A stretch of 64,000 nucleotides of DNA from Escherichia phage ECO103 4-12-1. Below the pieces are notes generated by a model. The model was not told the origin of the DNA and searched no databases. It saw only the letters and a program-made list of their open reading frames with translations. The stretch lies in the sequence record OR844650; one strand, written 5' to 3'. Below are positions 2,902-4,250 of this stretch, piece after piece. The first letter of the stretch is position 1; each line of letters opens with the position of its first letter. Both the position numbers and the translations under genes were made by a program.

Positions 2902-3282
2902 TCATTTAGTAAAACACGAATTATTACTGATAAGTTCATCAAGTACGTTTTGTACTTCGATAGAATTAATATCAACTTTGTAATAATTATAGTTTTTAAC
3001 TCTAAAATGTTCTTTTGATATATCAACTTTAAATTCAATAATATCAAGATTACCAATAAAATCAGACTTATCAGTTCTTAAATCCAAAATACCTAATTCC
3101 GGTTTTTGTGGTTTACATAAAATCAAACCAAATTTATTTTCTTCAAATGCCTGATTAAACATATCATAATAATCACTAATAACAAATCTAATATTATCAG
3201 TGCTTAACTTTCCTGATTTTCCTTTTTTATAAACAGAAACAATGTTTAGTTCAAAGGTTTTACCAAAGCGTGTGATTTTCAT
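2902..3282 (-). CDS. hypothetical protein
   Basis: 126-aa ORF. Confidence 0.5.
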   Translation of the reverse strand: MKITRFGKTFELNIVSVYKKGKSGKLSTDNIRFVISDYYDMFNQAFEENKFGLILCKPQKPELGILDLRTDKSDFIGNLDIIEFKVDISKEHFRVKNYNYYKVDINSIEVQNVLDELISNNSCFTK

Positions 3283-4250
3283 TTTGGGCTATAACCACTT
3301 TTAATTTTGGAAATTACTTTCTTCTCGAAGAACTTACGTGCTTCTTCAATAGTTTCGAATTCTTCACCATCAGTAGTACTGGTTTTACCAATAGCACCGT
3401 ACTCAATAATTACTTCACACACTGGAGCATTCAATTCAATATTATAGAATTTGTTTGAAGAACCGTGAACATATTCCAAATGAACATTATCAGGAATGTT
3501 CTGTACATAATCATAGTTCTTGAAGATAATATCAATCATATTTTCTTCGCCGCGATCAGGAAATAGTTCAGTATTATTCAGTACTAAACGCTGTGCAGCA
3601 CGGAACATATCAAAATATTGTTCGCCTTTTTTCAGTTCTTTTGTATCAGAACAGAAATGACCATAGTATTCTACATAATCATTCCAAGGATAAATTCCTT
3701 CATCAGCAGTTTCAGACACGTAAGTTTCATCTTGTGGAACTTTAAAACCACGAGTTTTTGGATGAGAAATTAAGCACAGTGAAATATTATGACCGATATC
3801 TGAATCATCAGTAATACTACCACCAACCATATGAACAACATTTTTAATACTTTCAAAATCTACATCTTCAATTTCATGATACATTAAATGTTCTTCAATA
3901 TTACTTACTAGTAATGAATTACCATTTCCGGCATCGAATTCAAAAATGAAAAGTTCTACACAATCTTCTTCTTTCATTTCAATAGTATCACTGAGTTTAA
4001 TATACTCATTTTTTAATTGTTCAATATTTTCATGAGAACCAAAACTATAACGTGAACTGATATAACTACTACCGTCCAACCATCCCATATCCCAAGGTTC
4101 TTCTGACATGTATTCTGAGCTATAGAAATCAGTCAAATCATCTCTCTGAGTACAAACCGTAAGAGAACGAACATTACTAAGACCTTGAACTTCAAGATTC
4201 AGTACTGTAGTATTGCCAATTTTTTGTTCAGAAATAATTTTAGTTTTCAT
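3279..4250 (-). CDS. hypothetical protein with C-terminal WGR-like domain
   Basis: C-terminus KFYNIELNAPVCEVIIEYGAIGKTSTTDGEEFETIEEARKFFEKKVISKIKSGY fits the WGR pattern (KFY..., [W/Y]G[R/A]IG, ...eeA...f...K...GY). Confidence 0.55.
   Translation of the reverse strand: MKTKIISEQKIGNTTVLNLEVQGLSNVRSLTVCTQRDDLTDFYSSEYMSEEPWDMGWLDGSSYISSRYSFGSHENIEQLKNEYIKLSDTIEMKEEDCVELFIFEFDAGNGNSLLVSNIEEHLMYHEIEDVDFESIKNVVHMVGGSITDDSDIGHNISLCLISHPKTRGFKVPQDETYVSETADEGIYPWNDYVEYYGHFCSDTKELKKGEQYFDMFRAAQRLVLNNTELFPDRGEENMIDIIFKNYDYVQNIPDNVHLEYVHGSSNKFYNIELNAPVCEVIIEYGAIGKTSTTDGEEFETIEEARKFFEKKVISKIKSGYSPK

What the first reader, a model, noticed from the sequence alone, without database searches (positions are those of the whole stretch)
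3279..4250. Phage protein with a C-terminal WGR-like domain
The last 60 residues or so of the 323-aa protein match the WGR pattern (KFYNIEL ... EYGAIGKTSTTDGEEF ... EEARKFFEKKVISKIKSGY). WGR is a nucleic-acid-binding module best known from PARP enzymes and some bacterial proteins. Together with the Sir2 and Nudix genes this hints at an ADP-ribose or DNA-break sensing theme. The N-terminal 250 residues are unassigned.
Basis: partly seen in the sequence, partly recalled or inferred. Interest (0 to 1): 0.5.

Follow-up and report, generated by a model that had tools for sequence, protein, structure and literature searches.

The report
Jumbo-phage accessory protein with WGR domain
A 323-residue protein of a PBECO4/121Q-type giant coliphage really does end in a WGR nucleic-acid-binding domain, but public records and a 2021 review already say so, its link to the nearby Sir2/Nudix genes is not supported, and its acidic N-terminal 250 residues remain an orphan domain of unknown function.

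The parts
3279..4250 (-). Complete ORF, 323 aa plus stop. Orthologue of PBECO4, slurp01, UB, phAPEC6 gp336c and Ecwhy_1 QAY00573.1, annotated 'WGR domain-containing protein'.
   Evidence: dN/dS 0.107 against Ecwhy_1.
3285..3485 (-). WGR domain, residues 256-322. The triad reads Y284-G285-A286. Conserved K267, Y269, K311, K315, S318-G319-Y320.
3492..4250 (-). Family-specific acidic N-terminal region, residues 1-253. It comprises a beta-meander, a ferredoxin-like beta-alpha-beta-beta-alpha-beta core (about residues 1-172) and a five-helix subdomain (about 173-253). Net charge -28, pI 4.4.
3798..3821 (-). G144-x3-D148-D149-x-D151 motif after a beta-strand. G144, D148 and D149 are invariant even in homologues of 16-20% identity. 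It is followed by H163-P-K-T-R167-G-F-K170-V-P, with a basic residue at 167 and K170 in at least 90% of sequences.
   Evidence: Alignments A1, A2 and A4.
4341..4369 (-). Best sigma-70-like site in window 1900-6600 (TTGACA, 17 nt, TG-c-GATAAT; 11 of 12, extended -10), about 90 bp upstream of the start codon.
   Evidence: The total number of sites in the region is at chance level (25 found, 23 expected), so function is inferred, not shown. No equivalent site lies before the L002 homologue.
4260..4451 (-). Decayed copy of the last 63 codons of the ~290-aa gene that precedes the WGR gene in diverged relatives, with one in-frame TAA at 4350-4352. It is a recombination scar.
   Evidence: 82.5% aa identity to the C-terminus of the L002 297-aa protein, 70-73% to L003, L004 and L007, but 24.5% to the resident upstream gene.
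2847..4454 (.). Segment present in PBECO4-type phages but replaced by 216 bp (59-aa gene 485) in phage 121Q. It holds the WGR gene, the scar, the promoter-like site and the 126-aa ORF.
2902..3282 (-). 126-aa ORF whose start overlaps the WGR stop codon by 4 bp. It is not an obligate partner.
   Evidence: Absent next to the WGR gene in Ecwhy_1. Present without WGR in WPEC5. No family hit.

Best explanation
This is a non-structural, cytoplasmic accessory protein of Asteriusvirus/Rak2-like jumbo phages. It has two tightly packed parts: a family-specific acidic N-terminal domain and a minimal, bacterial-type WGR domain at the C-terminus. The WGR domain most likely binds nucleic acid through its conserved Lys and Tyr backbone-contact surface. 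That binding would be directed at DNA or RNA structure or backbone rather than at a specific sequence. It would localise the N-terminal domain or switch it allosterically. The invariant G-x3-DD motif and two nearby basic residues in the N-terminal domain suggest a metal- or ligand-binding site. The gene is dispensable, moves between related phages by recombination, and in this phage may be read from its own host-type promoter. It is not a component of the neighbouring Sir2-Nudix-cREC NAD+ module. Shown: the domain identity, the fold, the distribution, the selection and the recombination scar. Inferred: nucleic-acid binding, the coupling between the domains, the ligand site and the expression timing.
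For: WGR identity by sequence and fold. Four of the eight PARP2 WGR DNA contacts listed by Obaji et al. 2018 (PMC6294510) are kept and are invariant or nearly so in the family: K130=K267, Y132=Y269, K179=K311, K183=K315. W151 is kept as an aromatic, Y284. The full-length model has pTM 0.89, which indicates a fixed arrangement of the two domains. The N-domain is found only fused to WGR, in all 24 and 11 hits of two profile searches and in the full-length hits of the exhaustive search. That points to the two domains working as one unit. G144, D148 and D149 are invariant down to 16% identity. Purifying selection, dN/dS 0.107. Accessory status and mobility. Not listed in the phAPEC6 virion proteome table, while the nearby PIN-PhoH is. 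No signal peptide or hydrophobic segment is evident in the sequence.
Against: No binding or activity has been measured for any member. The conserved Lys and Tyr positions are also the general hallmarks of the WGR profile and could be structural. The WGR arginine is Ala or Gly here, and the PARP2 5'-phosphate-reading Y201 has no counterpart. The WGR domain is about neutral (net -3) and the whole protein is acidic (pI 4.5, net -31), which is unusual for a nucleic-acid binder. The phage proteome is acidic overall, with median pI 5.2. The invariant DD could simply cap the following helix. The promoter match lies in AT-rich DNA where such matches occur at chance frequency.
Confidence: 0.4

Rival explanations
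1. It is a phage transcription factor. The WGR domain binds specific operator DNA, as proposed for bacterial MolR-like proteins, and the N-terminal ferredoxin-like/ACT-like domain senses a small molecule, as in a one-component regulator.
Against: In the WGR-DNA complex consulted here (PARP2) nearly all listed contacts are to backbone, sugar and the break rather than to bases, so sequence-specific readout is not evident. No helix-turn-helix or other sequence-reading motif is present. The protein is strongly acidic. A dispensable gene that many close relatives lack is unlikely to run the core transcription programme. The classification in the review is computational only.
Confidence: 0.2
2. It is a counter-defence factor that acts mainly through protein contacts or mimicry. 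The acidic N-domain would mimic DNA or block a host nuclease or defence sensor, and the WGR domain would target it to DNA ends or to a host partner.
For: It is an accessory, horizontally exchanged gene in a variable region. It may have its own host-type promoter. The N-domain carries a net charge of -24 to -35 across all 27 members. WGR-like domains occur in accessory proteins of type XIII retrons (Mestre et al. 2020, PMC7736814), and PADLOC holds a WGR_XIII model (weak hit, E = 0.022).
Confidence: 0.15
3. It belongs to an ADP-ribose/NAD+ pathway together with the neighbouring Sir2, Nudix and cREC genes. It would sense DNA breaks or ADP-ribose polymers as PARP enzymes do.
For: Sir2, a Nudt16-like Nudix and cREC lie 4-6 kb away in the same orientation. 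This order is conserved in diverged relatives L002 and L003. WGR is best known from PARPs. A preprint reports the PARP1 WGR as a poly(ADP-ribose) reader (10.1101/2021.12.21.473685, abstract seen).
Against: Presence is independent: 121Q and others keep the Sir2-Nudix-cREC-PhoH block without the WGR gene. A terminator-like site and eight genes separate them. The conserved order is general backbone synteny of this phage clade. Distant family members sit in contigs where no Sir2 or Nudix is recorded. No PARP, macro, NADAR or ART domain is present in the protein.
Confidence: 0.07
4. It is a decaying or functionless ORF carried along by recombination.
For: It is dispensable in close relatives. A pseudogene scar lies next to it.
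Against: It is full-length and conserved in 27 or more clusters down to 38% identity, and in a distant branch at about 20%. dN/dS is 0.107. The predicted fold is confident.
Confidence: 0.03

Closest known systems
Short bacterial WGR domains, e.g. the N-terminal WGR of Bacteroides fragilis Q64V53 (PDB 2ra8, WGR + leucine-rich repeats)
   Different: In 2ra8 the WGR is N-terminal and followed by LRRs. Here it is C-terminal and preceded by an orphan acidic domain. 2ra8 has Lys at the 'R' position, this family mostly Ala or Gly. 2ra8 carries no functional name in the PDB ('Uncharacterized protein').
WGR domains of PARP1, PARP2 and PARP3 (DNA-break sensors)
   Different: There is no PARP catalytic or helical regulatory domain. 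R153 is replaced by Ala or Gly. The C-terminal extension with the 5'-phosphate-reading Y201 is missing. The loop between strands is shorter. The domain order is reversed, with WGR last.
MolR/YehI-like bacterial proteins (WGR + DUF4132), the comparison made by Iyer et al. 2021
   Same: They share the WGR domain. The orthologue QAY00573.1 was grouped with them as a putative transcription factor.
   Different: DUF4132 is absent (Pfam). The N-domain here has no relative in any cellular genome searched.
WGR-like/HEAT-repeat accessory protein of type XIII retrons (PADLOC WGR_XIII)
   Same: A WGR-type module in a phage-bacterium conflict context.
   Different: Only an insignificant match restricted to the WGR part (E = 0.022). 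No HEAT/ARM repeats, no reverse transcriptase nearby, and it is encoded by the phage rather than the host.

Membership tests
WGR domain (Pfam PF05406) | Profile match above the curated gathering score | tested here: met
   41.9 bits against a cut-off of 22, E = 1.1e-10, residues 256-322, profile positions 3-74 of 79. All homologues carry PF05406.
WGR domain (Pfam PF05406) | WGR fold (antiparallel sheet packed on one long helix) superposable on solved WGR domains | tested here: met
WGR domain (Pfam PF05406) | Eponymous Trp-Gly-Arg triad | tested here: not met
   The triad is Y284-G285-A286. Across the family it reads Y/W, G, then A/G/P/Q, with R only in P0058. 2ra8, a solved WGR-fold protein, also has Y-G-K, so the exact triad is not kept across the family.
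WGR domain (Pfam PF05406) | Nucleic-acid binding | not testable with these tools
   There is only indirect support: 4 of 8 PARP2 DNA-contact residues are kept and 1 more is conservatively replaced.
PARP-type DNA-break sensor / ADP-ribosyltransferase | PARP catalytic (ART) domain and helical regulatory domain following the WGR | tested here: not met
   No PARP or PARP_reg hit in Pfam. The protein ends 3 residues after the WGR. The N-domain shows no PARP-like fold match.
PARP-type DNA-break sensor / ADP-ribosyltransferase | Residues that read the break termini (PARP2 R153 and Y201) | tested here: not met
   R153 aligns with A286. Y201 lies in an extension that is absent here.
Sir2-Nudix-cREC NAD+-centred module of jumbo phages (Iyer et al. 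2021) | Co-occurrence and operonic linkage with the module's genes | tested here: not met
   The module is present without the WGR gene in 121Q, and records such as E9.1, SHEFM2K and JP4 list Sir2 and Nudix while covering only 81% of the region. Eight genes and a terminator-like site lie between them. The WGR family occurs in L013 and L014, where no Sir2 or Nudix is recorded.
MolR-like WGR + DUF4132 proteins | DUF4132 domain | tested here: not met
   No DUF4132 hit in any of 15 family members at E <= 10.
Thoeris ThsB / TIR-like (weak PADLOC lead) | Consistent profile match across the family, and a flavodoxin-like TIR fold | tested here: not met
Tandem-WGR proteins | A second, degenerate WGR copy in the N-terminal region | tested here: not met
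   hhalign of the WGR profile against the N-domain profile gives probability 0.13%. Family members show a single WGR stretch.

The most novel reading that the evidence does not exclude
The orphan N-terminal domain is a new enzymatic or ligand-binding module, built around the invariant G-x3-DD site, whose activity is switched on when the fused WGR domain binds a nucleic-acid structure. This would be the allosteric logic of PARP enzymes with a different effector. Giant phages would use and exchange it as an accessory weapon against host nucleic-acid-targeting defences.
Probability: 0.12. Interest if true: 0.6.

Novelty: already known. Interest (0 to 1): 0.22.

Why it matters
It matters little as it stands. 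The WGR call repeats public annotation, and nothing ties the gene to a pathway. The analysis adds four things. The N-terminal 250 residues form a confidently folded, clade-restricted orphan domain that is always fused to WGR. The gene is a mobile accessory unit with a visible recombination scar. The break-specific PARP residues are missing. The attractive 'Sir2 + Nudix + WGR = ADP-ribose system' story should not be propagated. If WGR-dependent control of a new effector domain were shown, it would give a first function for the widespread but uncharacterised short prokaryotic WGR domains.

Tried and rejected
(1) ThsB/TIR-like lead from PADLOC (E = 0.02): seen in 1 of 15 members and with no fold support, so rejected.
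(2) N-terminal region as a degenerate second WGR: rejected, hhalign probability 0.13%.
(3) The 126-aa downstream ORF as an obligate partner or two-gene cassette: rejected, because each gene occurs without the other. The equally long 126-aa gene upstream of a distant homologue (L011) is unrelated.
(4) N-domain in other architectures or in cellular genomes: none found with two profile searches of 5.8 billion proteins, an exhaustive HMM search of 1.84 billion representatives, IMG/VR and GTDB genomes.
(6) Acidity as evidence of DNA mimicry: weakened, because the whole proteome is acidic.
(7) WGR charge as evidence against DNA binding: inconclusive. 276 WGR domains from the search hits have a median net charge of +2 with a 5-95% range of -3 to +6, and this one is -3.
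(8) Conservation of the promoter-like site: not found before the L002 homologue.
(9) Experimental data in papers on phAPEC6, Sharanji, UE-S1 and fEgEco12: none mention the gene.
(10) Correction: the first row of alignment A1 and of model m1b32c9045eed lacks Met1 because I trimmed the wrong end of the minus-strand reference. Residue numbers in this report are true protein numbers.

Full report

**What genome this is, and prior knowledge.** Window 1000-9500 is 99.5% identical to Escherichia phages BF17 and UB, and 98-99.6% identical to slurp01, phAPEC6, PBECO4 and G17. These are Asteriusvirus, Rak2-like jumbo myophages of about 350 kb. In PBECO4, UB, slurp01, BF17, phAPEC6, Sharanji, fEgEco12 and UE-S1 this gene is already annotated 'WGR domain(-containing) protein'. 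[quoted passage not shown] QAY00573.1 is gene 294 of phage Ecwhy_1, the 97.8%-identical orthologue at the same position. The central claim of the finding is thus public knowledge. I found no experimental work on the protein.

**Distribution.** Only 16 phage records hold the protein, namely 15 Escherichia phages and Erwinia phage Hallingskeid at 39.6% identity. By contrast, 51 records share the surrounding region. In 121Q the 1,608-bp segment 2847-4454 is replaced by 216 bp carrying a 59-aa gene, while both flanks are 95-97% identical. Metagenome assemblies add 27 clusters of full-length homologues (314-331 aa, 38-100% identity), all with WGR. An exhaustive HMM search of 1.84 billion representatives found 1,120 hits. 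Almost all of the 150 listed match the WGR part only. Just nine representatives are full-length, including a distant branch of five at 16-20% identity in the N-domain (P0031, P0032, P0035, P0058, P0114). Pattern-based scans found no relative in IMG/VR or in 185,579 representative bacterial and archaeal genomes. Pairwise dN/dS against Ecwhy_1 is 0.107, from 15 synonymous and 7 nonsynonymous changes. So this is a real, selected, but dispensable gene, restricted to a few phage lineages.

**Mobility.** The 217-bp spacer upstream of the gene is not random DNA. In one frame it encodes, with a single TAA stop, the last 63 residues of the ~290-aa protein that directly precedes the WGR gene in diverged relatives. 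It is 82.5% identical to the L002 protein and 70-73% to those of L003, L004 and Hallingskeid. It is only 24.5% identical to the C-terminus of the resident upstream gene 4468-5118. The WGR gene therefore entered, or re-entered, PBECO4-type genomes by recombination with a diverged relative and dragged the end of its old neighbour with it. The best sigma-70-like match in window 1900-6600 (TTGACA, 17 nt, TGcGATAAT; 11 of 12) sits inside this scar at 4369..4341. It may give the gene its own host-RNA-polymerase promoter. This is an inference, because such matches occur at chance frequency in this AT-rich DNA and L002 has no equivalent site. The 126-aa ORF whose start overlaps the WGR stop codon is an independent passenger. 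Ecwhy_1 has the WGR gene without it. WPEC5 is among the records holding the ORF but not among those holding the WGR protein.

**Relation to Sir2 and Nudix.** Sir2 (9193-9951, PF02146), a Nudt16-like Nudix (8645-9196) and a cREC domain protein (8315-8635, PF20274) are present, followed by a PIN-PhoH ATPase (6516-7955). This is the NAD+-centred block discussed by Iyer et al.. The WGR gene is eight genes further on, past a terminator-like hairpin at 6155..6134, and phage G17 has a terminator annotated between the PhoH block and this gene block. The block is retained in relatives that lack the WGR gene. The order Sir2-Nudix-cREC-x-PhoH, then WGR, then dCMP deaminase in L002 and L003 is general backbone synteny. 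The distant subfamily lies in ORFan-rich contigs carrying an adenylosuccinate-synthetase-like gene and a DnaJ-like gene, and no Sir2 or Nudix family is recorded for any gene within 7-9 kb. The protein has no NAD- or ADP-ribose-related domain. I therefore rate the ADP-ribose reading as unsupported. The one point in its favour is a preprint that reports PARP1's WGR as a poly(ADP-ribose) reader.

**The WGR domain in detail.** Obaji et al. 2018 (PMC6294510) list the PARP2 WGR contacts with a DNA break. K130, Y132, K179 and K183 contact the backbone. W151 stacks on the 5' ribose. R153 contacts the 3' phosphate. Q159 contacts a base. Y201, with K130 and K183, reads the 5' phosphate. In the HMM and MAFFT alignments these map to K267 (invariant), Y269 (invariant), K311 (at least 90%), K315 (invariant), Y284 (Y, or W in one member), A286 (A/G/P/Q, R in one member) and T292 (variable). 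Y201 has no counterpart, because the phage domain ends three residues after the position aligned with PARP2 W188. So the generic backbone-binding face is kept, while the residues that make PARP2 break- and 5'-phosphate-specific are not. The domain is the short bacterial type, with 2ra8 as its closest relative. Its net charge (-3) is at the low end of 276 WGR domains from the search hits, which have a median of +2 and a 5-95% range of -3 to +6.

**Mechanism.** The fixed fusion, the compact two-domain model (pTM 0.89), the retained backbone-contact residues and the invariant acidic motif lead me to one preferred reading, at 0.4 confidence. The WGR domain tethers the N-domain to nucleic acid or switches it on there, and the N-domain carries a metal- or ligand-binding site. 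The protein would act inside the infected cell as an optional accessory factor. It is not listed in the phAPEC6 virion proteome table, whereas the nearby PIN-PhoH (gp341c) is. The rivals are a sequence-specific transcription factor as classified by Iyer et al. (0.2), a protein-directed counter-defence factor or DNA mimic (0.15), the ADP-ribose module (0.07) and a functionless ORF (0.03). None can be settled without experiments.

**Verdict.** The finding is already known in substance. The orphan N-domain and the recombination scar are modest additions. Interest is low to moderate.

Noticed in passing
window 4260-4451 (minus strand): A pseudogene fragment: the last 63 codons of a foreign ~290-aa gene, with one in-frame TAA at 4350-4352. 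It is 82.5% identical to the C-terminus of the protein preceding the WGR gene in metagenomic relative L002, but only 24.5% to the resident upstream gene. It is a recombination scar that shows how the WGR gene arrived. This C-terminal segment is also much better conserved (70-83%) among diverged phages than the rest of that protein (21-43%).
   Followed up: yes
window 4341-4369 (minus strand): The strongest sigma-70-like promoter match in 1900-6600 (TTGACA, 17 nt, TG-c-GATAAT). It lies inside the pseudogene scar, over its stop codon, about 90 bp before the WGR start. It may be a promoter created or exposed by the decay of the fragment.
   Followed up: partly
window 2902-3282 (minus strand): A 126-aa ORF with no family match whose ATG overlaps the WGR stop codon (ATGA). 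It is found in 10 phage records, including WPEC5 (73% identity), which lacks the WGR gene. It is absent from Ecwhy_1-type phages, which have the WGR gene.
   Followed up: partly
window 6516-7955 (minus strand): A PIN + PhoH fusion ATPase (479 aa). [quoted passage not shown]
   Followed up: no
window 8315-9951 (minus strand); L003 1-2016: A conserved Sir2, Nudt16-like Nudix and cREC (cyclic-phosphate-processing receiver) block. In metagenomic relative L003 an Acb1-family gene (PF23474, anti-CBASS nuclease family) sits immediately upstream of Sir2. This suggests a cluster devoted to degrading nucleotide or NAD-derived signals.
   Followed up: no
window about 57976-59870 and 56481-56930 (minus strand): A tandem array of at least five paralogous, very acidic (pI 4.05-4.45) proteins of 147-164 aa with similar N-termini (MSLQSALKEAKKIHEYM, MTLQSSLEKAKKIHEYM, MSLERALEIAKLI and similar).
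   Followed up: no
L013 5341-12341; L014 3274-9350: In the distant branch of the family the WGR gene follows three consecutive genes of 360-410 aa with no recorded Pfam family. It lies next to an adenylosuccinate-synthetase-like gene (PF00709) on an ORFan-rich, probably viral contig. In phages such a gene could be PurZ, the enzyme for 2-aminoadenine genomes, but this was not examined.
   Followed up: no
search hits P0028-P0030: The closest non-family WGR domains belong to 531-606-aa proteins with four or five tandem WGR copies (E = 1e-39 to 1e-41). Their origin and role were not examined.
   Followed up: no
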